Shown here: in pieces, positions 26,861 to 53,704 of the stretch
Position numbering within the stretch: the stretch's first letter is position 1
Layout of the letters: every line of letters begins with the position of its first letter
NCBI RefSeq assembly: GCF_058153355.1
Contig: NZ_CM177019.1
DNA: 64,000 bases
Direction: 5' to 3' (one strand)
Made by a program: the position numbers and the translations under genes
Notes under the pieces: model-generated
What the model was told of the DNA's origin: nothing
Databases searched by the model: none
What the model saw: only the letters and a program-made list of their open reading frames with translations

Positions 26861-27609
26861 GATGCACTCCCGACTGGCGTTTTCAGCCCGGAATAGTTCA
26901 ACAGGCACCAGTTAGCCAGCGTCAGTATCTCTTCAGCCGCCAGCGCATCACTGCGGTATTCGCCGACTGGTTGCTTAGCCGCCAGGCATTGAGCCATCGC
27001 TTCATCACGATGAATGAGCATTGGCAGTAATCGGCGCTGGCTTTGCAACCAAAGCTGGTAAATATCGTCCTGAACCTGACTGCCGATACGGAAGTCATTA
27101 ATCAAAATATGCGCGCCATCCGGCAGCGCCTGCTGATGCAGCCGGATATGGCAGTTGGCATCCACATTGACGATTGCCAGCGAGTGATCGCACAAACTCA
27201 GCAGCTGGTGGGTTATCTGCGAGGCATCACGCGGTAAGTCGATTAAAATCCACTGGTAACGCCCGCTGGCTTTTAGTTGCTGTAAGCCGGAGCAAATATC
27301 GCTCAGCCGGGTTTGCCAGTGCTGTGGATTTTCTTGTTCTTCAATGGATAACTGACCAAAAGGCAGCAAATCGAGTTGCGAGGTATAGCGCAACCCGGCG
27401 TCACGCCAGTCCTGACCGTCCAGCATGGCTCTGGCCCAGCCCTGACGGTGGGTAAAATCAACGTTAAATGACAGGCGCAACAAGTTGTCCGGGCAGGCAT
27501 CGACCACCAGGACATCTTCTCCCAACATTTGTAATGACCAGGCTAATGCGGCAGTGATGGTTGTTGTTCCCACGCCTCCCCGCACCCCCTGCAATCCCAG
27601 TACGGCCAT
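26857..27609 (-). CDS. bcsQ: Cellulose biosynthesis ParA/MinD-like ATPase BcsQ, full length
   Basis: Uninterrupted 250-aa ORF starting MAVLGLQGVRGGVGTTTIT (deviant Walker A); codon 6 is TTG at 27592..27594. Confidence 0.85.
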   Translation of the reverse strand: MAVLGLQGVRGGVGTTTITAALAWSLQMLGEDVLVVDACPDNLLRLSFNVDFTHRQGWARAMLDGQDWRDAGLRYTSQLDLLPFGQLSIEEQENPQHWQTRLSDICSGLQQLKASGRYQWILIDLPRDASQITHQLLSLCDHSLAIVNVDANCHIRLHQQALPDGAHILINDFRIGSQVQDDIYQLWLQSQRRLLPMLIHRDEAMAQCLAAKQPVGEYRSDALAAEEILTLANWCLLNYSGLKTPVGSAS

Positions 27610-27620
27610 TCACCAATCCC

Positions 27621-27809
27621 CTACTTTTGTTGCGCAAACTCTGCCAGCAACGGCCAGCGTTTTAATGCCGCGGCCAACTGTTCGCGTTGGGAAATATCGG
27701 CATAATCAATATCAGGCAGTGAAAACGCCTGCTTTAACGCCAAAATATCATTCTGGAAGATATAGCCTATCGCGGGATCAGGCAGAGTATCTGGTTCATT
27801 GTTATTCAT
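27621..27809 (-). CDS. bcsR: Small cellulose biosynthesis protein BcsR
   Basis: ORF 27621..27851; start set at MNNNEPDTLPD (62 aa). Confidence 0.7.
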   Translation of the reverse strand: MNNNEPDTLPDPAIGYIFQNDILALKQAFSLPDIDYADISQREQLAAALKRWPLLAEFAQQK

Positions 27810-27851
27810 TTGCTTGATCCCTATGAAATAACCGTACCGTTCATGAGACAA

Positions 27852-28080
27852 TTCTAACCGTGAGCATTTCGCCGGTTTATTGTTTACGGCGAGACGGGAA
27901 TTTGCTCACTTTTTGACTTTCCGTTACGCAACAAAAAAAGTTAAAAACGAAAAGACTAAAATCACACGTCTTGTGACCTGCTAAATTGATTCACATGCTA
28001 AATCTGATAAGTTTTAATTTCAATGGTAGGTTTATTTCTTAGCTTTCGCTAGTAAACTGATAATCAGACAAAATGATGAC
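27852..28080. promoter_or_regulatory. Divergent intergenic control region between bcsRQABZC and bcsEFG
   Basis: About 230 bp of AT-rich non-coding sequence between two divergently oriented operon starts; no individual promoter mapped. Confidence 0.4.
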
Positions 28081-29652
28081 ATGAGGGACATTGTGGACCC
28101 TGTATTCTCTATCGGTATCTCATCATTATGGGATGAGCTGCGACATATGCCAGCAGGCGGCGTCTGGTGGTTTAACGTCGATCGCCATGAAGATGCTATC
28201 AGTCTGGCGAATCAAACAATTGCATCCCAGGCTGAAACCGCACACGTCGCGGTCATTAGCATGGACAGCGATCCGGCGAAAATCTTTCAATTAGATGATT
28301 CTCAAGGGCCGGAAAAAATAAAATTATTTTCAATGCTAAATCATGAAAAAGGTCTATACTATTTGGCCCGTGATTTGCAGTGTTCTATTGATCCCAATAA
28401 TTACCTTTTTATTCTTGTTTGCGCAAATAACGCATGGCAAAACATTCCTGCCGAGCGGCTTCGCTCATGGTTGGATAAAATGAATAAATGGAGCAGGTTA
28501 AACCATTGTTCGCTTTTGGTAATTAATCCCGGAAATAATAACGATAAACAATTTTCATTGTTGCTTGAGGAATACCGTTCACTTTTTGGTCTTGCCAGTT
28601 TGCGTTTTCAGGGCGACCAACATTTGCTGGATATTGCCTTCTGGTGCAACGAAAAAGGGGTCAGCGCCCGTCAGCAGCTTAGCGTTCAGCAACAAAAAGG
28701 TATCTGGACATTAGTTCAAAGCGAAGAGGCGGAGATCCAACCACGCAGCGACGAAAAACGCATTCTGAGTAATGTTGCTGTACTGGAAGGTGCGCCGCCG
28801 CTATCGGAACACTGGCAACTGTTCAACAATAACGAAGTTCTGTTCAATGAAGCCCGTACCGCTCAGGCGGCGACGGTGGTCTTTTCTTTACAGCAAAATG
28901 CGCAAATCGAGCCACTGGCCCGCAGCATTCATACTCTGCGTCGCCAGCGCGGTAGTGCGATGAAAATCCTCGTACGGGAAAATACCGCAAGCCTGCGCGC
29001 CACCGATGAACGTTTGTTATTGGCCTGCGGTGCAAATATGGTTATCCCGTGGAATGCGCCACTCTCCCGCTGTCTGACGATGATCGAAAGCGTGCAAGGG
29101 CAGAAGTTTAGTCGCTATGTGCCGGAAGATATCACTACCTTGCTGTCAATGACCCAGCCGCTCAAACTACGTGGTTTCCAGAAGTGGGATGTGTTCTGTA
29201 ATGCCGTTAACAACATGATGAATAACCCTCTCTTGCCTGCACATGGTAAAGGCGTTCTGATTGCCCTACGTCCGGTACCGGGTATCCGCGTTGAGCAAGC
29301 CCTGACGCTGTGTCGCCCTAACCGTACCGGCGATATCATGACCATTGGCGGTAATCGGCTGGTGCTGTTTCTCTCATTCTGTCGGATTAACGATCTGGAT
29401 ACCGCGTTGAATCATATTTTCCCATTGCCGACTGGCGACATTTTCTCAAACCGTATGGTCTGGTTTGAAGATGATCAAATCAGTGCCGAGCTGGTGCAGA
29501 TGCGCCTGCTTGCTCCAGAACAATGGGGCATGCCGCTGCCTTTAACGCAAAGTTCTAAACCGGTCATCAATGCCGAGCACGATGGTCGCCACTGGCGAAG
29601 AATACCAGAACCAATGCGACTGTTAGATGATACTGTGGAGCGCTCATCATGA
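28081..29652 (+). CDS. bcsE: Cellulose biosynthesis protein BcsE (c-di-GMP binding)
   Basis: 523-aa ORF. Confidence 0.85.
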
Positions 29653-29840
29653 TGACCATCAGCGATATCATTGAAATTATTGTCGTTTGCGCACTGATAT
29701 TTTTCCCGCTGGGCTATCTGGCGCGGCACTCTTTGCGACGCATTCGCGACACCTTACGTTTGTTCTTTGCTAAACCTCGTTATGTTAAACCGGCCGGGAC
29801 GTTACGCCGCACGGAAAAAGCCAGGGCAACCAAAAAATGA
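29649..29840 (+). CDS. bcsF: Small membrane protein BcsF
   Basis: 63-aa hydrophobic ORF overlapping bcsE stop and bcsG start by 4 nt each. Confidence 0.7.
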
Positions 29841-31516
29841 CTCAATTTACGCAAAATACCGCCATGCCTTCTTCCCTCTGGCAATACTGGCGCGGCCTTT
29901 CCGGCTGGAACTTCTATTTTCTGGTTAAGTTCGGCCTGTTGTGGGCGGGATATCTTAACTTCCATCCGCTCCTCAATCTGGTGTTTGCCGCGTTTCTGCT
30001 GATGCCCATTCCGCGCTACAGCCTGCATCGCTTACGCCACTGGATTGCCCTGCCGATCGGCTTTGCTTTGTTCTGGCATGACACCTGGTTGCCTGGCCCG
30101 GAAAGCATAATGAGCCAGGGTTCGCAGGTGGCGGGGTTCAGTACCGATTATTTAATCGACCTTGTCACACGCTTTATTAACTGGCAGATGATTGGGGCCA
30201 TTTTTGTTTTATTAGTGGCCTGGTTATTCCTGTCACAATGGATTCGCATTACCGTTTTTGTGGTTGCCATTCTGCTATGGCTGAACGTACTTACCCTGGC
30301 GGGACCAAGTTTCTCCTTGTGGCCTGCCGGTCAACCGACGACCACTGTAACAACGACGGGTGGTAACGCAGCGGCAACCGTTGCGGCGACGGGTGGCGCA
30401 CCGGTAGTGGGTGATATGCCCGCACAAACTGCACCGCCAACAACGGCGAACCTTAACGCCTGGCTGAATAATTTCTATAACGCGGAGGCGAAACGTAAAT
30501 CGACCTTCCCGTCTTCGCTGCCCGCTGATGCTCAGCCATTTGAACTACTGGTGATTAATATCTGTTCGCTTTCCTGGTCGGATATTGAAGCCGCCGGGTT
30601 GATGTCGCATCCGCTGTGGTCGCATTTCGATATTGAGTTCAAGAACTTTAACTCCGCCACCTCCTACAGTGGCCCGGCGGCGATCCGTTTACTGCGCGCC
30701 AGCTGCGGGCAGACTTCGCACACTAATCTGTATCAACCGGCAAATAACGACTGCTATCTGTTTGATAACCTGTCGAAACTGGGCTTTACCCAGCACCTGA
30801 TGATGGGACATAACGGCCAGTTCGGCGGTTTTTTGAAAGAAGTTCGCGAAAATGGCGGCATGCAGACCGAATTGATGGATCAAACAAATCTGCCGGTTAT
30901 TTTGCTGGGCTTTGATGGTTCGCCGGTTTATGACGATACCGCCGTGCTTAACCGCTGGCTGGACGTTACCGAAAAAGATAAAAACAGCCGTAGTGCCACG
31001 TTCTACAACACGCTTCCACTGCATGACGGCAACCATTATCCGGGCGTCAGCAAAACAGCGGATTACAAAGCGCGAGCGCAGAAATTCTTTGATGAGCTGG
31101 ACGCCTTCTTTACTGAACTGGAGAAATCGGGTCGTAAAGTGATGGTGGTAGTGGTGCCGGAACACGGTGGCGCGCTGAAGGGCGACAGAATGCAGGTATC
31201 TGGCCTACGTGATATCCCTAGCCCGTCTATCACAGACGTCCCCGTTGGGGTGAAATTCTTCGGCATGAAGGCACCACATCAGGGGGCACCGATTGTCATC
31301 GACCAACCGAGCAGCTTCCTGGCTATCTCCGATCTGGTGGTTCGCGTTCTTGATGGTAAGATTTTCACCGAAGACAATGTTGACTGGAAAAAACTCACCA
31401 GTGGGTTGCCACAAACAGCACCGGTCTCCGAGAACTCAAATGCAGTGGTTATTCAATACCAAGATAAACCGTACGTTCGCCTGAACGGCGGCGACTGGGT
31501 GCCTTACCCGCAATAA
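29837..31516 (+). CDS. bcsG: Cellulose phosphoethanolamine transferase BcsG
   Basis: 559-aa ORF; N-terminal TM segments, C-terminal sulfatase-like domain. Confidence 0.85.
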
Positions 31517-31602
31517 GAACGAAAAAGGCCGCAGAGTTTCACCCCTGCGGCCTGATCCGGGCGCAAATTGCCATTACGGCAGCCTGACGCCCGCATGACA
31601 CG

Positions 31603-31710
31603 TTACTTCCGCTTATTCAGCGAGTTCACGATCAGACTGGCAAGAATGCCAGCAATGACCGGAGCCGCTAAATCATGCCAGAAGGCCATGCCCAGTTCTG
31701 CGAGCGTCAT
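31603..31710 (-). CDS. ldrD: Type I toxin LdrD, small membrane peptide
   Basis: 35-aa ORF MTLAELGMAFWHDLAAPVIAGILASLIVNSLNKRK inside the longer ORF 31603..31845. Confidence 0.7.
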   Translation of the reverse strand: MTLAELGMAFWHDLAAPVIAGILASLIVNSLNKRK

Positions 31711-31757
31711 ATAGCCGCCTCTGTTGTAATGACAACGTTTCGCGGCTATTCTTGAGT

Positions 31758-31824
31758 TGTTTGGGTTCAAGATTAGCCCCCGTGATGTTGTCAGGTGCAT
31801 ACCTGCAACGTGCGGGGGTTTTCT
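31758..31824 (+). ncRNA. rdlD: Candidate antisense RNA RdlD (antitoxin of ldrD); boundaries approximate
   Basis: Plus-strand hairpin CCCCCG...CGGGGG followed by TTTT at 31777..31824, opposite the ldrD leader; position inferred from the known ldr/rdl arrangement. Confidence 0.3.
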
Positions 31825-32185
31825 CTCTCCAGCAACCAATGCCACCAGGGATTAAGCCCCCGCAACATTGCGCCTCACCGGAACCTTTCCGGCTTGCCGC
31901 TGCTTTTACGATTGCTTTTTACCGTCAGCACCCGGCAATCTTCCTCATTGCGTGATGCCTTCCAGCTTAATTTCTTTATTTGCAATAGTTGCAGTTCATA
32001 TCCGGGCTGACTCCAGACTGGTAGTGAAATGCGCAATTTTGTAGAATTGCGCCTCCTCGCGACCTCCCCAGTGAATCTGTTGCCTCATTTTTTACATACT
32101 GCGTATTCGACTTCTCCACCTGTTGCGCAAGAGAAACTGGGTTTATTCATTTTTGCGAGGCCGACTTCTTTCTGGACAGGACTTT

Positions 32186-33457
32186 ATGCAGCACAACACA
32201 CTACCGAAACACGATCAGAAAATGCCGTTTACACGCTACGACTTCGGCTGGGTTTTATTATGCATAGGCATGGCGATTGGTGCCGGAACCGTGCTGATGC
32301 CAGTACAAATTGGCTTGAAGGGAATTTGGGTATTTATTACCGCAGCGATCATTGCTTATCCTGCCACCTGGGTAGTGCAGGACATTTATTTAAAAACCCT
32401 TTCTGAAAGCGATTCCTGTAATGACTACACCGATATTATCAGTCATTACCTGGGGAAGAACTGGGGAATTTTCCTCGGGGTTATCTACTTTTTGATGATT
32501 ATCCACGGGATTTTTATCTACTCTCTCTCCGTGGTTTTCGACAGCGCCTCGTACCTGAAAACCTTCGGTTTAACCAATGCCGATCTTTCACAATCTCTAC
32601 TTTATAAAGTCGCCATTTTCGCCGTACTGGTGGCAATTGCGTCTGGTGGTGAACGATTACTGTTTAAGATTTCCGGGCCAATGGTGGTGGTCAAAGTAGG
32701 GATTATTGTCGTCTTCGGTTTTGCGATGATCCCGCACTGGAATTTCGCCAATATAACCGCCTTCCCGCAAGCCTCCGTCTTTTTCCGCGATGTCCTGCTT
32801 ACCATTCCCTTTTGCTTCTTTTCTGCGGTATTTATTCAGGTACTTAACCCAATGAATATTGCCTATCGTAAACGGGAAGCGGATAAAGTACTGGCAACCC
32901 GGCTCGCGCTGCGTACCCACCGAATTAGTTATGTCACGCTCATCGCGGTGATCCTGTTTTTTGCCTTTTCGTTTACCTTCTCAATTAGCCACGAAGAAGC
33001 CGTTTCTGCCTTTGAACAAAATATCTCGGCACTGGCACTGGCCGCGCAGGTGATCCCTGGGCATATCATTCATATCACCTCTACGGTGCTGAATATCTTT
33101 GCCGTACTGACCGCATTCTTTGGCATTTATCTCGGTTTCCACGAGGCCATTAAAGGCATTATTCTCAATCTGTTAAGCCGAATTATTGATACCAAGAAAA
33201 TTAACTCACGCATGCTGACTCTGGCGATCTGCGCTTTTATCGTCATTACGTTGACGATTTGGGTTTCGTTTCGTGTATCGGTGCTGGTGTTCTTTCAGTT
33301 GGGAAGCCCGTTATATGGCATTGTGTCGTGCCTCATTCCATTTTTCCTGATCTATAAAGTCTCACAACTGGAAAAACTTCGCGGGTTTAAAGCCTGGATG
33401 ATTCTGCTGTACGGCATTTTGTTATGCTTGTCGCCACTGTTGAAGCTGATTGAGTAA
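32186..33457 (+). CDS. yhjV: Amino-acid permease-like inner membrane transporter
   Basis: ORF 32123..33457; start set at [11 protein letters not shown] (423 aa); polytopic hydrophobic profile. Confidence 0.8.
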
Positions 33458-33486
33458 ACCGGAGCGCATGGCCCCGGTTTTGTGAG

Positions 33487-34491
33487 TTACCGCTGCGGAT
33501 TTTCATCCTGATCAACAGCAAAACAAGCTACCAGTTGACCGCCGTAGTCTTTTAGCTGCGGCTGCAACTGGGTGCAGGGGCCGAAGCGCCGACGACAGCG
33601 GGCGTTAAACGCGCAGCCCGGCGGTGGATTGAGCGGGCTTGGCAGTTCACCGGTGAGCTTGATGCGCTCGCGGCGATCGTCCGGGTTCAGGCGCGGCGTC
33701 GCGGAGAGTAGCGCCTGGGTGTACGGATGACGCGGGTTATTGAAGATTTGGTCCTTCGTTCCCTTCTCCACGCAGCGGCCCAGGTACATCACCATCACTT
33801 CATCAGCAATATGCTCCACCACCGACAGGTCGTGGGAGATAAAGACATAAGAAAGCCCCAACTCCTGCTGCAAATCCATCATCAGATTCAGCACCTGCGC
33901 ACGCACTGAAACGTCCAGCGCGGAAACCGGTTCATCGGCAATCACCACATCCGGGTCGAGCATCAGACCACGGGCAATGGCGATACGCTGACGCTGACCG
34001 CCGGAGAACATATGCGGGTAGCGGTCGTAATGCTCGGTTTTTAGGCCAACTTTTGCCATCATCGACAACGCTTTTTCCCGACGCTGTTCTTTGCTTAAAC
34101 TGGTGTTAATAAGCAGCGGCTCTTCAAGAATTTGCCCAACTTTTTTACGCGGATTTAGCGAACCATAGGGATTCTGGAAGACGATCTGGATTTTCTGCCG
34201 ACGCAACTTCTGCGCCTGCGGATCGTGCTTGAGCAGATCCTGCCCCTGGTAATACAGTTCGCCACCGGTCGGCGTTTCGATCATCGTCAGCAACCGACCG
34301 AGGGTCGACTTACCGCAGCCAGATTCACCCACTACTGCCAGCGTTTTGCCACGTTCAAGATTAAACGAAACGCCATCCAGCGCCTTTACAAGACGTTCCG
34401 GCGCGAACATGCCTTTCTTCACCGGATAATGTTTTTTCAGGTCGATAGCCTGCAACAGCGGTTGTTGCAGGGTGGCCTCTTGCGTACTCAT
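33487..34491 (-). CDS. dppF: Dipeptide ABC transporter ATP-binding subunit DppF
   Basis: 334-aa ORF with Walker [10 protein letters not shown] and ABC signature LSGGQRQR. Confidence 0.9.
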
Positions 34492-35471
34492 AGTGTGGGC
34501 CTCCCGGCATCATCAAGTGGGTAATGGCATTTGGACTGACGCCCGTCAGCGAGCATATTCAGCGCCGGTTCTTCAGCACGGCATCTGTCAGTGGCATAGG
34601 GGCAACGCGGGTTAAGCAGGCAGCCATTCGGACGGTCGTATTTGCCAGGAACGACGCCAGGCAATGACGCCAGACGTTCTTTGTCCTGGGCAAATTCCGG
34701 CAGCGCGCGCAGCAATGCCTGAGTATACGGATGACGCGGTGCATGGAAGATGGCGTGGGCATCGCCCGTTTCCACCACCTGGCCTGCATACATGACGATG
34801 ATTTTATGCGCCGCTTCCGCCACCAGCGCCAGGTCATGGGTAATCAACACCAGCGCCATGTTCTCTTTCTGCTGCAGCTCCAGCAGCAGTTCGATGATTT
34901 GTGCCTGAATGGTCACGTCCAGCGCGGTGGTCGGCTCATCAGCAATCAGCAGTTTTGGCCGACAGGCAATCGCCATGGCGATCATCACACGCTGGCTCAT
35001 GCCGCCAGAAAGCTGATGCGGGTAAACATCCAGACGCGAAGCCGGATCGGGAATACCGACCTGATTCAGCAGGTCAATCGCCCGCTGACGGCGAGTGCTC
35101 TTATTACCGCCCTGATGCACCTTAATCGCTTCCATGATCTGGAAACCAACGGTGTAGCATGGGTTAAGGCTGGTCATCGGGTCCTGAAAGATCATCGCCA
35201 CTTCGGCACCCACCAGGTTGCGGCGCTCTTTTTCCGAGATACACTGCAAATCCTGGCCGTTAAACTCCAGCTTTTCTGCCATCACGCGGCCCGGATAATC
35301 AATCAGCCCCATAATCGCCAGTGAACTGACCGACTTACCGGAGCCAGACTCACCCACAATTCCGACCACTTCGCCTTGTTTCACGCTGTAGCTGATACGG
35401 TCTACGGCGCGGAACGGTGCGCTTTCGTCACCGAAATGCACCGATAATTTATCTACATTTAATAACGCCAT
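34488..35471 (-). CDS. dppD: Dipeptide ABC transporter ATP-binding subunit DppD
   Basis: 327-aa ORF with Walker A GESGSGKS and LSGGMSQR. Confidence 0.9.
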
Positions 35472-35481
35472 CTCGAACCTC

Positions 35482-36384
35482 TTACTGCTTCAGTTTGGGA
35501 TCGAGCGCGTCACGCAGACCGTCACCCATCAGGTTAAATGCCAGCACCGTCAGCAGGATCGCCAGACCCGGGAAGGTCACGACCCACCAGGCGCTTTGCG
35601 CGAACTGCAACACGTCAGAGAGCATGGTGCCCCACTCCGGCGTTGGCGGCTGCGCTCCCATGCCAAGGAAGCCAAGGGCGGCCATATCGAGAATGGCGTT
35701 AGAGAAACCGAGCGACGCCTGAACAATCAGCGGCGCAAGGCAGTTCGGGAAGATGTTAATAAACATCTGGCGCATCGCCCCGGCACCCGCCACGCGAGAC
35801 GCGGTAACGTAATCGCGATTCACCTCCACCAGCACGGCGGCGCGGGTTAAGCGCACATAGTGTGGCAAGGCAACGAAGGTTAGCGCCAGCGCGGCGTTAC
35901 CAATCGACGGGCCGAAAATCGCCACCAGCACCAGTGCCAACAGCAGACTTGGCAGCGCCAGCATGATATCGACCACGCGCATGATGATGTTATCGACCAG
36001 ACCGCCAAAGTAACCAGCGATCAGGCCGAGAATAACGCCCATAATCAGCGATAACACAACTACCAGACAGCCAACCAGCAGCGACAAGCGCGCGCCGTAC
36101 ATCAGCCGCGACAGCACATCACGGCCTACGTCATCGGTGCCAAGCAAGTGCGCCATGCTGCCGCCTTCCTGCCAGGCTGGCGGGGCGAGCAGTGCATCGC
36201 GGAACTGTTCCGCCGGGTTATACGGCGCAATCCAGTTGGCAAAGATCGCGATAAACAACACGATGACGACGTAAACCAGCCCGACGACCGCGCCTTTGTT
36301 GCGTTTAAAATAGTGCCAGAACTCCTGTAACGGGGTCATCGGCACCGGTGCGCTAATCACTTTATTTTCAGTAACCTGTGACAT
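35482..36384 (-). CDS. dppC: Dipeptide ABC transporter permease DppC
   Basis: 300-aa ORF, polytopic. Confidence 0.9.
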
Positions 36385-36393
36385 GATGTCCCC

Positions 36394-37413
36394 TTACTTC
36401 TTATGACGAATACGCGGGTTCACCACGCCGTACAGCAGATCGACCAGCAGGTTGACGAGGATAATCATCGTCGCCACCAGCAATACGCCACCCTGCACTA
36501 CCGGATAATCGCGGCGTTGCAGTGCGTCAATCAACCAGCGCCCCAGACCGGGCCACGAGAAGATGGTTTCGGTCAGAATCGCGCCTGCCAGCAATGTTCC
36601 CACCTGCAGGCCGATAACGGTCACCACCGGCAGCATGGCATTACGCAGCGCATGGACGATAATCACCCTAAGGCGGGTCAGCCCTTTGGCACGCGCGGTG
36701 CGGATGTAATCCTCGCCCAGCACTTCCAGCATCGAGGAGCGCGTCATACGTACAATGACCGCCAGCGGGATAGTACCCAGCACAATGGCGGGCAAAATCA
36801 TATGGGCGACAGCATCAATAAAGTTGCCGTCTTCACCCCAGATGGCGGTGTCGATCAGCATAAAACCGGTTAACGGATTGGAGTCATCGAGGAACACCAT
36901 GTCGCTCACGCGACCGGAGACGGGCGTCAGGTTCCAGTGCACTGAAACCAGCATGATCAACATCATGCCCCACCAGAAGATCGGCATGGAGTAGCCGGTC
37001 AGCGCCAGACCAACCGCCGTGTGATCGAAAATAGAACCGCGTTTAACCGCAGCCAGCACACCAACCGGAACACCGACCGCGGTCGCAAAAATCATCGCGC
37101 AGACGCCAAGTTCCAGCGTGGCCTGGAAGCGCGGCACGAACTCTTCCCATACCGGAATTCGGCTTTTCATCGAAATGCCTAAATCACCGTGCATTACGCC
37201 CCAAATGTAATGGAGATACTGCTGCCACATCGGTTTATCCAAGCCGAGTTCTGCCAGCAATTGCGCGTGACGCTCTGGGGAGATCCCACGTTCACCCGCC
37301 ATGATCATCACCGGATCGCCCGGGATCATGTGGACAAAGGCAAATGTGAGAAGGGTAATACCGATAAACGTGGGGATGACGAGTCCCAAACGTCGGAGAA
37401 TAAACTGCAACAT
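36394..37413 (-). CDS. dppB: Dipeptide ABC transporter permease DppB
   Basis: ORF 36394..37476; start set at MLQFILRRLG (339 aa). Confidence 0.85.
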   Translation of the reverse strand: MLQFILRRLGLVIPTFIGITLLTFAFVHMIPGDPVMIMAGERGISPERHAQLLAELGLDKPMWQQYLHYIWGVMHGDLGISMKSRIPVWEEFVPRFQATLELGVCAMIFATAVGVPVGVLAAVKRGSIFDHTAVGLALTGYSMPIFWWGMMLIMLVSVHWNLTPVSGRVSDMVFLDDSNPLTGFMLIDTAIWGEDGNFIDAVAHMILPAIVLGTIPLAVIVRMTRSSMLEVLGEDYIRTARAKGLTRLRVIIVHALRNAMLPVVTVIGLQVGTLLAGAILTETIFSWPGLGRWLIDALQRRDYPVVQGGVLLVATMIILVNLLVDLLYGVVNPRIRHKK

Positions 37414-37479: not shown

Positions 37480-37715
<236 letters not shown>

Positions 37716-39889: not shown

Positions 39890-41202
<1,313 letters not shown>

Positions 41203-41410
41203 CATGCCTGCAATCTGGGAAACCGGGGTAGAAAAAAACTTGCAGGCCATAACAGTATCTACGTTCAGATTTGGTCGGTGCCAGAGGATTACTCGCCACT
41301 GCGTGGCTCGCCCTGCGGGCCGTTGCTGACGCAACGTTCTCTCGCTTTGCTCGAGTCGAACCTCTCTGCCCCCGGAGGTTCTTATCCTCTTCAGGTCGCA
41401 GAAAGCAAAA

Positions 41411-41436
41411 AACCAGCCCGTAGGCTGGTTTTTCTA
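41411..41436 (-). terminator. Rho-independent terminator downstream of proK
   Basis: Hairpin AACCAGCCCGTAGGCTGGTT with U-run on the minus-strand transcript, just 3' of the tRNA. Confidence 0.5.
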
Positions 41437-41439
41437 AAT

Positions 41440-41516
<77 letters not shown>

Positions 41517-52712: not shown

Positions 52713-52872
52713 AACGGTTTGACGTACAGACCATTAAAGCAGTGTAGTAAGGCAAGTCCCTTCAAGAGTTATCGTTGATACCCCTCGTAGTGCATTTCCT
52801 TTAACGCTTCAAAATCTGTAAAGCACGCCATATCGCCGAAAGGCACATTTAAATTATTAAAGGTAATACACT
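52713..52872 (+). promoter_or_regulatory. cspA long 5' leader (cold-responsive regulatory region)
   Basis: About 160 nt of non-coding leader before the cspA start; role inferred from known cspA biology. Confidence 0.5.
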
Positions 52873-53085
52873 ATGTCCGGTAAAATGACTGGTATCGTAA
52901 AATGGTTCAACGCTGACAAAGGCTTCGGCTTCATCACTCCTGACGATGGCTCTAAAGACGTGTTCGTACACTTCTCTGCTATCCAGAACGATGGTTACAA
53001 ATCTCTGGACGAAGGTCAGAAAGTGTCCTTCACCATCGAAAGCGGCGCTAAAGGCCCAGCAGCTGGTAACGTAACCAGCCTGTAA
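52873..53085 (+). CDS. cspA: Major cold-shock protein CspA
   Basis: 70-aa [40 protein letters not shown]... with RNP1/RNP2 motifs. Confidence 0.95.
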
Positions 53086-53112
53086 TCTCTGCTTAAAAGC
53101 ACAGAATCTAAG

Positions 53113-53142
53113 ATCCCTGCCAAATGGCGGGGATTTTTTTAT
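53113..53142 (+). terminator. Rho-independent terminator of cspA
   Basis: Hairpin ATCCCTGCC/GGCGGGGAT followed by TTTTTTT. Confidence 0.6.
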
Positions 53143-53273: not shown

Positions 53274-53426
53274 TTACTCTTTCAATTTGCAGGCTAAAAA
53301 CGCCGCCAGCTCATAATTCTCCTGTTTAATATGCAATTCACACAGTGAATCTCTTATCATCCAGGTGAAAAATAAAAGCGTGAAACAAATCACTATTAAA
53401 GAAAGTAATCTATATTTCTGCGGCAT
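53274..53426 (-). CDS. hokA: Hok-family type I toxin HokA
   Basis: 50-aa ORF MPQKYRLLSLIVICFTLLFFTWMIRDSLCELHIKQENYELAAFLACKLKE. Confidence 0.75.
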   Translation of the reverse strand: MPQKYRLLSLIVICFTLLFFTWMIRDSLCELHIKQENYELAAFLACKLKE

Positions 53427-53486
53427 TCCCAGCCTCCTGTGTTGATTTCCAACGAGTAAGAGGCTAACCTTATGGTGTTCAGGCAT
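53274..53486 (-). CDS. mokA: Overlapping leader reading frame MokA ending at the hokA stop
   Basis: 70-aa ORF containing the hokA frame; called by analogy with hok/mok/sok loci. Confidence 0.5.
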   Translation of the reverse strand: MPEHHKVSLLLVGNQHRRLGMPQKYRLLSLIVICFTLLFFTWMIRDSLCELHIKQENYELAAFLACKLKE

Positions 53487-53704
53487 AGGGTAGCCTCACT
53501 TTGATTTATAGTCAGGTGGGGCTTTTCTCTGTCTGCCTTTCGGTGAATACCTGAGACAAACAGTCTCAAGCACCCGTGGCTATTCTAGCTTAATAAGTTC
53601 TTTTCTTCTCCTTGATATAATCCTAAAAAAATCTCATAAAATTAATATATGAGACAATCTTTATTCAGCAGAAGATTATTAAAGGTTGCTCTATTATTTA
53701 GCGA

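What the first reader, a model, noticed from the sequence alone, without database searches (positions are those of the whole stretch)
31603..31845. ldrD/rdlD type I toxin–antitoxin pair between bcsG and yhjV
A 35-aa hydrophobic Ldr-type peptide ORF is preceded by an extended leader, and a plus-strand hairpin-plus-T-run (31777..31824) on the opposite strand fits the 3' end of an Rdl antisense RNA. This is a second small toxin locus in the window, next to the biofilm and cellulose genes.
Basis: partly seen in the sequence, partly recalled or inferred. Interest (0 to 1): 0.3.

Follow-up and report, generated by a model that had tools for sequence, protein, structure and literature searches.

The report
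Known ldrD/rdlD toxin–antitoxin pair confirmed
This is the well-known E. coli ldr/rdl small-toxin and antisense-RNA pair in its usual place between bcsG and yhjV, so it is ordinary, although this copy is a recombinant allele that lacks the toxin family's hallmark tryptophan.

Summary
A 35-codon Ldr toxin gene lies at 31603..31710 (-): Pfam Ldr_toxin 83 bits against a cut-off of 27, and 32/35 identical to K-12 LdrD (PDB 5LBJ). A full-length RdlD antisense RNA gene lies at 31759..31824 (+): Rfam RF01813 90 bits against a cut-off of 50, fold z = -5. bcsG and yhjV flank the pair exactly as in K-12. The finding's span (31603..31845) is only the mechanical 80-codon ORF; its first 45 codons are 5' leader.

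This is an already known type I toxin–antitoxin locus. Three details are specific to this copy:

- **One unit where relatives have several.** Related E. coli carry 1, 2, 4 or 5 tandem 483-bp units here. The single copy matches, with no mismatches, the bcsG-side copy of its closest genome up to 31885 and the yhjV-side copy from 31861. It is therefore either a recombinant or an assembly collapse.
- **The signature tryptophan is serine (W30S).** This is a common natural allele, present in at least 312 of 5,426 complete genomes.
- **A changed promoter-like hexamer.** The conserved -10-like hexamer upstream of the toxin mRNA (TAGAAT in most other copies examined) reads TAAAAG here. That haplotype occurs in 3 of 5,426 genomes.

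Transcription, toxicity and the leader-ORF coupling mechanism were not tested here and are inferred.

The parts
31603..31710 (-). ldr toxin CDS at the LDR-D locus: 35 codons plus stop. Peptide MTLAELGMAFWHDLAAPVIAGILASLIVNSLNKRK. PxxxG motif at P17-G21, C-terminal NKRK, serine at the signature tryptophan position 30.
   Evidence: PF13940 83.4 bits; 5LBJ LdrD, E = 1e-16; exact peptide is public and named Ldr family toxin.
31718..31721 (-). Shine-Dalgarno GAGG, 7 nt upstream of the ldr ATG. K-12 has CAGG here.
   Evidence: Read from the sequence and the alignments.
31759..31824 (+). rdlD antisense RNA gene, 66 nt: a 16-nt single-stranded 5' tail, a long imperfect hairpin at 31775..31820, and a U-rich 3' end.
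   Evidence: RF01813 90.4 bits, full length; z = -5.0; terminator-like; tail predicted unpaired.
31724..31752 (+). Inferred rdlD promoter: -35 TTGTAA (31724..31729), 17-nt spacer, -10 TATTCT (31747..31752), with the start at 31759.
   Evidence: Read from the sequence. The -35 hexamer is identical in all 13 LDR copies aligned. The -10 hexamer is identical in 12, with one copy reading TATTAT. The match is 8/12, below the threshold of the consensus scan, so this is an inference.
31711..31896 (-). Inferred 5' leader of the ldr mRNA, about 186 nt. It contains the whole RdlD-complementary segment (31824..31759).
   Evidence: The start is inferred from the conserved -10-like hexamer. The resulting 378-nt transcript length agrees with the ~370-nt ldrD mRNA of Kawano et al. 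2002, which I cite from memory. [quoted passage not shown]
31903..31908 (-). Putative -10 hexamer of the ldr mRNA promoter. It reads TAAAAG here, against TAGAAT, TAGTAT or TAAAAT in the 12 other copies.
   Evidence: alignment; the exact 60-mer haplotype occurs in 3 of 5,426 complete E. coli genomes. Its role as a promoter element is inferred, not mapped.
31768..31781 (-). Candidate leader-ORF initiation site inside the RdlD target: GGGGG (31781..31777), 6 nt, then UUG (31770..31768). It is in frame with ldr here. In LDR-A and LDR-B (LDR-C was not listed) the same start opens a 20-codon ORF that ends in AUGA on the ldr start codon.
   Evidence: Some gene callers call the 55-aa and 65-aa in-frame versions. 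Its identity with the published 'ldrX' could not be verified.
31791..31868 (-). Conserved 25-codon leader ORF (MLRGLNPWWHWLLERENPRTLQVCT), ATG preceded by GGTGAGG. It ends inside the RdlD-complementary segment.
   Evidence: present in the LDR-A, LDR-B and D-type copies inspected; shifted by a 1-nt deletion in L006_c3. Function unknown.
31560..31595 (-). 3' UTR segment predicted to pair with the ldr translation-initiation region (31736..31699) and with a 5' element (31874..31868), forming a fold-back.
   Evidence: MFE -185.5 kcal/mol, z = -9.2; kept in the consensus with LDR-A/B/C, but only 2 compensatory pairs in the whole structure.
31517..31553 (-). Intrinsic terminator of the ldr mRNA: an 11-bp GC-rich stem at 31553..31526 followed by TTTTCGTTCT.
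   Evidence: The same element occurs in K-12 and in each array copy.
31861..31885 (.). Crossover interval of the chimeric single LDR unit. To the left the window has no mismatches to the bcsG-proximal copy of strain 2013C-4282 (from 31463); to the right it has none to the yhjV-proximal copy (through 32299).
   Evidence: position-wise comparison with L012.
31519..31919 (.). Extent of the LDR repeat unit shared with the tandem copies of other strains (period 483 bp).

Best explanation
This is a single LDR (long direct repeat) unit encoding a type I toxin-antitoxin pair of the ldr/rdl family, at the LDR-D site between bcsG and yhjV of an Escherichia coli-type chromosome.

The minus strand gives a highly structured mRNA of about 378 nt (about 31896 to 31519). 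It has a 186-nt leader, a 35-codon gene for a small membrane peptide of the Ldr/Fst superfamily, and its own terminator. The plus strand gives the 66-nt RdlD RNA (31759..31824) from its own promoter. RdlD is perfectly complementary to leader nucleotides 73-138 and ends 48 nt upstream of the toxin start codon.

RdlD does not cover the toxin's Shine-Dalgarno sequence, so repression must be indirect. The most likely route has three steps. RdlD's unpaired 5' tail contacts an exposed loop of the leader (ACCCAAAC, 31766..31759). The full duplex then covers the initiation sites of leader reading frames (GGGGG-N6-UUG at 31781..31768; AUG at 31800). Translation of those frames through the toxin start region would otherwise open it, as mok does for hok. 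The duplex is also a substrate for RNase III.

Shown here: the identity, position and integrity of both genes, the terminators, and the predicted folds. Shown by others in K-12: toxicity of LdrD, repression by RdlD, and dsRNA formation. Inferred: both promoters, the mRNA 5' end, the leader-ORF coupling, and activity of this W30S allele.
For: RF01813 matches at full length, 90.4 bits. PF13940 matches at 83.4 bits. The peptide is 32/35 identical to the solved LdrD structure 5LBJ. Synteny and spacing are identical to K-12. Terminators are present on both strands. RdlD fold z = -5.0 and mRNA fold z = -9.2. The RdlD tail and its target loop are both predicted unpaired. Variation among the 9 distinct Rdl sequences aligned is concentrated in tail positions 3-8, an internal bulge and the apical loop, while most stem columns are invariant. 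The GGGGG-N6-UUG frame ends in AUGA on the ldr start in the LDR-A and LDR-B copies inspected, and is fused in frame in the D-type copies inspected. Literature: LdrD overproduction is toxic and RdlD counteracts it, and the ldrX coupling model has been proposed (PMC4147584; PMC8167048). An ~21-nt dsRNA peak maps to the ldrD/rdlD overlap, and both RNAs rise slightly in rnc mutants (PMC7373196). [quoted passage not shown]
Against: Nothing about expression was measured for this sequence. The sigma-70 consensus scan finds neither promoter, in the window or in K-12, so the promoter assignments rest on conservation alone. The fold-back helices are almost invariant, with only 2 compensatory pairs in the whole consensus structure, so covariation neither supports nor refutes them. 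Removing the 3' UTR in silico barely changes predicted accessibility of the SD and AUG (0.40 to 0.45). A 2021 review states that the mechanism of RdlD regulation is 'currently unknown' (PMC8309996), and the ldrX model is explicitly unconfirmed. The toxin lacks the superfamily's signature tryptophan (S30) and the putative -10 lacks its final T, so the toxin arm may be weaker than in K-12.
Confidence: 0.9

Rival explanations
1. The locus is an attenuated or decaying toxin-antitoxin pair. The antitoxin gene is intact, but the toxin arm is weakened twice: by W30S at the signature tryptophan and by a T-to-G change at the last position of the putative -10 hexamer (TAAAAG). Little or no active toxin would then be made.
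For: W occupies position 30 in 98 of 116 distinct LdrD-like sequences and is called the superfamily signature (PMC2887945; PMC7472228). The Pfam score drops from 93.7 to 83.4 bits. The hexamer ends in T in all 12 other LDR copies aligned. The TAAAAG haplotype occurs in only 3 of 5,426 genomes. From general knowledge, the final T of the -10 hexamer is one of its two most critical bases.
Against: The S30 allele is common and intact: at least 312 of 5,426 complete genomes carry the exact 60-mer, and the index lists the peptide in 11,487 blocks of the collection. That pattern suggests a maintained allele rather than a dying one. The Fst prototype has valine at this position and is toxic. The window's SD is stronger than K-12's (GAGG against CAGG). 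The -10 assignment is itself an inference.
Confidence: 0.2
2. The single copy is an assembly artefact. The real genome has two or more tandem LDR units, as its closest relatives do, and a repeat collapse produced the chimeric unit.
For: The window has no mismatches to the proximal copy of strain 2013C-4282 from 31463 up to 31885, and none to its distal copy from 31861 through 32299. That is exactly what a collapsed 483-bp tandem repeat would give. Draft contigs often end inside this array (L010). No complete E. coli genome matches the 631-bp span at 99% or more.
Against: Genuine single-copy genomes exist, such as K-12 and ST80, and copy number varies naturally between 1, 2, 4 and 5. Unequal crossing-over between tandem copies would give the same product. 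The clean single switch carries no mixed positions.
Confidence: 0.2
3. The 80-codon ORF (GTG 31845 to 31603), or its 55- or 65-codon versions, is the real protein-coding gene.
For: The frame is open, and gene callers have deposited 55-, 65- and 79-aa versions.
Against: Only residues 46-80 match the family model. RefSeq annotates 35 aa at every homologous locus, and the solved LdrD chain is 35 aa. In LDR-A/B/C a 1-nt difference puts the upstream frame out of frame. In K-12 the same frame runs to 91 codons, whereas in the window a stop closes it at 31852, so its length is not conserved. The upstream codons lie opposite the rdlD gene, which better explains their conservation.
Confidence: 0.03
4. 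The plus-strand hairpin with its T-run is only a terminator or a chance structure, and no antisense RNA gene is present.
For: No promoter passes the consensus scan.
Against: The covariance-model match includes the 16-nt unstructured 5' tail and is full length at 90 bits. The -35 and -10 hexamers sit at the correct distance from position 31759 and are essentially invariant across 13 copies. No upstream plus-strand gene needs a terminator here, because the hairpin lies about 260 nt beyond the bcsG stop, past the ldr terminator and inside the ldr leader. RdlD has been detected experimentally in K-12.
Confidence: 0.02

Closest known systems
E. coli K-12 ldrD/rdlD (LDR-D, 79.7 min; Kawano et al. 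2002)
   Same: Same chromosomal site (bcsG / ldr / yhjV / dppF), the same 35-codon gene and 66-nt antisense RNA, the same 49-nt offset between the ATG and the RdlD start, the same terminators, and 96.8% DNA identity over 631 bp.
   Different: Three amino-acid changes (F3L, M26L, W30S). Four differences among the first 8 nt of the RdlD 5' tail, plus one in an internal bulge of the hairpin. SD is GAGG instead of CAGG. The putative -10 is TAAAAG instead of TAGAAT. The K-12 leader/RdlD segment is identical to that of an internal array member (L006_c4), whereas the window's matches the bcsG-proximal array copy, so the two are better seen as different members of one array family than as strict alleles.
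Tandem LDR arrays at bcsG-yhjV in other E. coli (for example strain 2013C-4282 with 2 copies; other genomes with 4 or 5)
   Same: The window's toxin, RdlD and 3' end have no mismatches to the bcsG-proximal copy. Its promoter side and yhjV flank have no mismatches to the yhjV-proximal copy.
   Different: The window has one unit instead of 2-5. The combination of the S30 toxin with the TAAAAG upstream region was not matched at 99% or more in any of 5,426 complete genomes.
LDR-A/B/C (ldrA-C/rdlA-C, kdsA-chaA region of K-12)
   Same: Same unit architecture, with near-identical leader, RdlD stems, TIR and 3' UTR.
   Different: LdrA/B/C differ from the window peptide in sequence (for example MTLAQFAMIFWHDLAAPILAGIITAAIVSWWRNRK). 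The Rdl apical loop differs. A 1-nt difference makes the UUG leader frame a separate 20-codon ORF ending in AUGA in the LDR-A and LDR-B copies inspected. The period is 535 bp.
hok/sok/mok of plasmid R1 and its chromosomal homologues (one, hokA/sokA, is in this window)
   Same: Both have a stable, highly folded toxin mRNA with a long leader, an antisense RNA opposite the leader rather than the toxin RBS, a proposed leader ORF that couples translation, and a predicted 5'/3' fold-back.
   Different: The toxin family is unrelated (Hok about 50 aa, Ldr 35 aa of the Fst/Ldr superfamily). For ldr the coupling and any 3' processing are unproven.
Fst/RNAII (par of pAD1) and Gram-positive Fst-like toxins
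   Same: Same toxin superfamily: a TM helix with PxxxG and a charged C-terminus.
   Different: In those systems the antisense RNA is encoded opposite the 3' end of the toxin gene, so regulation is different.

Membership tests
Ldr toxin family (Pfam PF13940 Ldr_toxin) | Match to the curated family model above its gathering score, over the full 35 residues | tested here: met
   83.4 bits against a cut-off of 27, residues 1-35 on model positions 1-35. E = 1e-16 to PDB 5LBJ LdrD.
Ldr toxin family (Pfam PF13940 Ldr_toxin) | Hydrophobic transmembrane helix with a PxxxG motif, followed by a cluster of charged residues at the C-terminus | tested here: met
   P17-V-I-A-G21 and C-terminal NKRK, read from the translation. 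The motif definition is from PMC7472228.
Fst/Ldr superfamily | Signature tryptophan between the TM helix and the charged C-terminus | tested here: not met
   Position 30 is Ser (TCG instead of TGG, plus-strand base 31622). W occurs in 98 of 116 distinct LdrD-like sequences and S in 11. The literature calls it highly conserved but not essential, since the Fst prototype has Val. I therefore treat it as a typical feature rather than a strictly defining one.
Fst/Ldr superfamily | Toxic when overproduced | not testable with these tools
   Shown for K-12 LdrD and LdrA, not for the S30 allele.
RdlD antitoxin RNA (Rfam RF01813) | Covariance-model score above the gathering score, at full length | tested here: met
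   90.4 bits against 50, model positions 1-66 of 66, E = 6.6e-18.
RdlD antitoxin RNA (Rfam RF01813) | Stable terminal hairpin with a U-run (intrinsic terminator) and a single-stranded 5' tail | tested here: met
   -31.7 kcal/mol, z = -5.0. Terminator-like site. Tail unpaired probability 0.8-1.0.
RdlD antitoxin RNA (Rfam RF01813) | Own promoter, transcribed as an RNA of about 60-66 nt | tested here: inconclusive
   TTGTAA-17-TATTCT ends 6 nt before 31759. The -35 is identical in all 13 copies and the -10 in 12 of 13. The match is only 8/12 to consensus and is not reported by the scan, in the window or in K-12.
Type I toxin-antitoxin system, ldr/rdl type | Antisense RNA encoded opposite the 5' leader of the toxin mRNA, fully overlapped by it and not covering the toxin RBS | tested here: met
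   RdlD at 31759..31824 against the ATG at 31710 and the SD at 31721..31718. The mRNA 5' end is inferred at about 31896. The overlap depends on that inferred mRNA start.
Type I toxin-antitoxin system, ldr/rdl type | RdlD represses toxin translation | not testable with these tools
   Shown in K-12 only. The mechanism is stated to be unknown or unconfirmed.
LDR (long direct repeat) element | Repeat unit of about 450-535 bp carrying both genes, found at kdsA-chaA and bcsG-yhjV | tested here: met
   401 bp of homology (31519..31919) to each 483-bp array unit, plus a diverged spacer. K-12 LDR-A/B/C has a period of 535 bp.

The most novel reading that the evidence does not exclude
Unequal recombination inside the tandem LDR array has produced a new combination. 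The S30 toxin (lacking the signature tryptophan) and its cognate RdlD now sit behind the upstream region of a different array member, whose putative -10 hexamer is damaged (TAAAAG). The locus would then keep a fully functional antitoxin but make little or only weakly active toxin. If so, it would be a natural snapshot of how type I toxin-antitoxin arrays shuffle and silence their members.
Probability: 0.15. Interest if true: 0.25.

Novelty: already known. Interest (0 to 1): 0.08.

Why it matters
It matters little beyond correct annotation. ldr/rdl at bcsG-yhjV has been a textbook type I toxin-antitoxin locus since 2002. The useful by-products are practical:

- The true gene is 35 codons. The 55- to 80-codon ORFs that some gene callers report are not the gene.
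- RefSeq annotation of the homologous loci lists no rdlD feature, so a covariance-model search is needed to find it.
- Copy number and allele content at this site vary between strains through recombination among 483-bp units. Strain comparisons and short-read assemblies of this region therefore need care.

The W30S allele and the TAAAAG upstream variant would be cheap natural test cases for two questions: what the signature tryptophan does, and where the ldr promoter lies.

Tried and rejected
- **Promoter scans.** The sigma-70 consensus scan of the window, K-12 and strain 2013C-4282 found no promoter for either RNA. It also misses the K-12 promoters of transcripts detected experimentally, so it says nothing either way.
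- **NCBIfam.** No model matched either the window peptide or K-12 LdrD.
- **Homologue search.** It was rerun with 10 leader-encoded residues added, which mainly returned over-extended gene calls.
- **Covariation in RdlD.** Most stem columns are invariant among the 9 distinct sequences aligned, so nothing can be concluded, and the count of structure pairs was not run.
- **Covariation in the mRNA fold-back.** Only 2 compensatory pairs were found in the whole consensus structure.
- **In-silico removal of the 3' UTR.** Predicted accessibility of the SD and AUG barely changed (0.40 to 0.45), so the fold-back inhibition idea remains weakly supported.
- **Papers not held.** Kawano 2012 (RNA Biol) could not be retrieved by DOI or PubMed id. 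Kawano et al. 2002 and Gerdes & Wagner 2007 turned up only as citations in the papers read. The published coordinates of the ldrD 5' end and of ldrX therefore could not be checked. One PMC id guessed from memory was the wrong paper.
- **The 80-codon ORF as a gene.** Considered and rejected; see the rival explanations.
- **Public-collection scan.** A genome contigs or metagenome scan was not run. It would only name the source organism or add distant homologues, which would not change the verdict.

Full report
**1. What is in the sequence**

The interval 31603..31845 named in the finding is exactly the mechanical 80-codon ORF on the minus strand, with a GTG start. Only its last 35 codons, from ATG 31710 to the stop at 31603, are the gene. 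The peptide is MTLAELGMAFWHDLAAPVIAGILASLIVNSLNKRK. It matches Pfam PF13940 (Ldr_toxin) over its full length at 83.4 bits against a cut-off of 27, with E = 1.1e-23. In the 80-aa translation the match covers residues 46-80 only. The peptide is 32/35 identical to K-12 LdrD and to the solved LdrD chain 5LBJ (E = 1e-16).

On the plus strand, the Rfam model RF01813 (rdlD antitoxin) matches 31759..31824 at 90.4 bits. The gathering score is 50, E = 6.6e-18, and all 66 model positions are matched. That stretch folds at -31.7 kcal/mol (z = -5.0; none of 200 shuffles fold as well) into a 16-nt free 5' tail and a long hairpin followed by UUUUCU. The terminator scan picks up the same hairpin.

Searches with two unit-specific 30-32-mers, allowing 3 mismatches, find only this one copy in the 64-kb window.

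**2. Context**

bcsG ends at 31516 on the plus strand, and the yhjV homologue starts at about 32186. Megablast of 31500..32130 hits 5,425 of 5,426 complete E. coli genomes. The features under the match are annotated ldrD or 'Ldr family toxin' and bcsG. In K-12 (strain MGY) and in an ST80 strain the order is bcsG, ldrD (35 aa, minus strand), yhjV, dppF, with identical spacing. No rdlD feature is listed at the homologous loci I inspected.

The window's ATG-to-RdlD-start offset is 49 nt, and the window aligns without gaps to K-12 across this stretch.

**3. Anatomy of the unit**

The features below are read from the sequence and from an alignment of 13 LDR copies: the window; K-12 LDR-A, B, C and D; ST80; a five-copy array; and a two-copy array.

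- **Toxin SD.** GAGG at 31721..31718, 7 nt before the ATG. K-12 has CAGG.
- **Toxin mRNA terminator.** An 11-bp GC-rich stem at 31553..31526 followed by TTTTCGTTCT. It is present in every copy.
- **rdlD promoter (inferred).** TTGTAA (31724..31729), 17 nt, TATTCT (31747..31752), then 6 nt to the RNA start at 31759. The -35 hexamer is identical in all 13 copies. The -10 hexamer is identical in 12, with one copy reading TATTAT.
- **Toxin mRNA promoter (inferred).** Similarity between the LDR-A/B/C type and the D type begins abruptly at CGTAG(A/T)ATC. I read the hexamer TAGAAT/TAGTAT at 31908..31903 as the -10. That puts the 5' end near 31896 and gives a 378-nt transcript. This agrees with the ~370-nt stable ldrD mRNA reported by Kawano et al. 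2002, which I cite from memory because the paper is not held.

The simple sigma-70 scan reports neither promoter, in the window or in K-12. These assignments therefore rest on conservation and geometry alone.

**4. How it most likely works**

Work by others in K-12 establishes the following:

- Overproduced LdrD kills cells and condenses the nucleoid, and RdlD counteracts this (PMC4147584; PMC8309996).
- The ldrD/rdlD overlap yields an ~21-nt dsRNA peak, and both RNAs are slightly more abundant and longer-lived in rnc mutants (PMC7373196).
- A leader ORF, ldrX, has been proposed to couple translation as mok does for hok, but this is unconfirmed. A 2021 review calls the mechanism unknown.

In the window, the RdlD-complementary segment (31824..31759) ends 48 nt before the ATG and does not reach the SD. 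Repression must therefore be indirect.

The modelled mRNA is very structured: MFE -185.5 kcal/mol, z = -9.2. Three regions stand out in the model:

- The start region (31736..31699) pairs with the 3' UTR (31595..31567).
- A 5' element (31874..31868) pairs with 31566..31560.
- The loop ACCCAAAC (31766..31759), complementary to the first 8 nt of RdlD, has an unpaired probability of 1.0.

The RdlD tail is likewise predicted free. Among the 9 distinct Rdl sequences aligned, variation is concentrated in tail positions 3-8, an internal bulge and the apical loop, while most stem columns are invariant. That is the pattern expected if the tail and loops set copy specificity.

Two possible leader start sites lie inside the RdlD target. 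The first is GGGGG-N6-UUG (31781..31768). Its frame ends in AUGA on the ldr start in the LDR-A and LDR-B copies inspected, and is fused in frame with ldr in the D-type copies inspected, including the window. The second is AUG 31800, which sits in a hairpin loop.

My working model is as follows. The RdlD tail contacts the leader loop. Duplex formation then blocks these leader starts, so no ribosome runs through and opens the toxin start region. RNase III also cuts the duplex.

The caveats are real. The fold-back pairs hardly vary, with 2 compensatory pairs in the whole consensus structure. Deleting the 3' UTR in silico does not free the SD (0.40 to 0.45). I could not verify which ORF the literature calls ldrX.

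**5. What is particular to this copy**

*(a) Copy number and a chimeric unit.* The exact peptide is public. In other genomes it is the bcsG-proximal member of tandem arrays of 2, 4 or 5 LDR units with a 483-bp period at this same site.

The closest complete genome, strain 2013C-4282 (99.1% over 10 kb), has two units. Position by position, the window has no mismatches to its proximal unit from 31463 up to 31885, and none to its distal unit from 31861 through 32299. The crossover therefore lies in 31861..31885 (the same pattern appears with another two-copy genome).

The single unit is thus a recombinant that lost one 483-bp repeat, or else a collapsed assembly. No complete genome matches the 631-bp span at 99% or more.

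*(b) W30S.* The tryptophan after the TM helix is the Fst/Ldr 'superfamily signature' (PMC2887945; PMC7472228). Here it is serine.

The allele is common. At least 312 of 5,426 complete genomes carry the exact 60-mer, and 11 of 116 distinct LdrD-like sequences have S30. The Fst prototype carries valine there and is still toxic, so loss of activity is not implied.

*(c) The putative -10 hexamer.* It reads TAAAAG here, whereas all 12 other copies end in T. The 60-nt haplotype occurs in 3 of 5,426 genomes, on the distal unit in the one I inspected, strain 2013C-4282.

If the hexamer is the -10, toxin mRNA synthesis may be reduced. This is an inference on top of an inference.

*(d) Relationship to the K-12 allele.* The K-12 LDR-D leader/RdlD segment is identical to that of an internal array member (L006_c4). 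The window's corresponds to the proximal member. 'ldrD/rdlD' is therefore correct as a locus name but loose as an orthology statement.

**6. Rivals**

- **The 80-codon ORF as a gene.** Rejected, for these reasons: the family match covers only the last 35 residues; RefSeq and PDB both use 35 aa; the upstream frame differs between LDR types and between strains; and it lies opposite rdlD.
- **A bare terminator instead of an sRNA gene.** Rejected, because the covariance-model match is full length and the promoter geometry is conserved.
- **An attenuated toxin arm, or an assembly collapse.** Both remain open, at roughly 0.2 each.

**7. Verdict**

This is an already known system in its known place. 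The allele-level details (a chimeric single unit, S30, TAAAAG) are minor natural variation, so interest is low.

Noticed in passing
window 53274..53575 (-): hokA/sokA type I toxin locus next to cspA. The Rfam sok model matches 53424..53575 at 124 bits, and a 50-aa Hok-type ORF (MPQKYRLLSLIVICFTLLFFTWMIRDSLCELHIKQENYELAAFLACKLKE) lies inside a 70-codon in-frame mok-like ORF.
   Followed up: partly
window 31791..31868 (-): A 25-codon ORF in the ldr leader (MLRGLNPWWHWLLERENPRTLQVCT), with its ATG preceded by GGTGAGG. It is conserved in the LDR-A, LDR-B and D-type copies inspected and ends inside the RdlD-complementary segment. Its ATG abuts the 5' element predicted to pair with the 3' UTR. I do not know whether it is translated or whether it is the published ldrX.
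   Followed up: partly
loci L003, L004, L006, L008, L012 (bcsG-yhjV intergenic region of other E. coli): The LDR-D site holds 1, 2, 4 or 5 tandem 483-bp ldr/rdl units in different strains. The copies differ mainly in the RdlD 5' tail, in the toxin's C-terminal third and in the spacer upstream of the conserved hexamer.
   Followed up: partly
locus L009 4291..5307: In one genome carrying the S30 allele, a DDE transposase gene (PF01609/PF05598) sits where bcsG should be, next to the ldr array. The cellulose operon is therefore disrupted by an IS element there.
   Followed up: no
protein hits P0017-P0045: Many public records annotate LdrD as 55, 65 or 79 aa, using the in-frame TTG 31770, ATG 31800 or GTG 31845 equivalents. 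These calls appear to be systematic over-extensions into the leader.
   Followed up: partly
window 41272..41516 (-): A tRNA-Pro(CGG) gene at 41440..41516 is followed by an RtT RNA element at 41272..41406 (Rfam 95.8 bits).
   Followed up: no
window 52713..53140 (+), 39898..39979 (+), 37620..37662 (+): Other Rfam matches above the gathering score: the cspA thermoregulator (488 bits), naRNA4, a nucleoid-associated ncRNA (69.6 bits), and the ES036 sRNA (44.8 bits).
   Followed up: no
window 27000..37000: Only one of 5,426 complete E. coli genomes reaches 99% identity over this 10-kb stretch (strain 2013C-4282, 99.1%), followed by WL297 at 98.9% and then 97.8% for the other top hits listed. The source therefore appears to be an uncommon E. 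coli lineage, or its own genome is absent from the collection.
   Followed up: no
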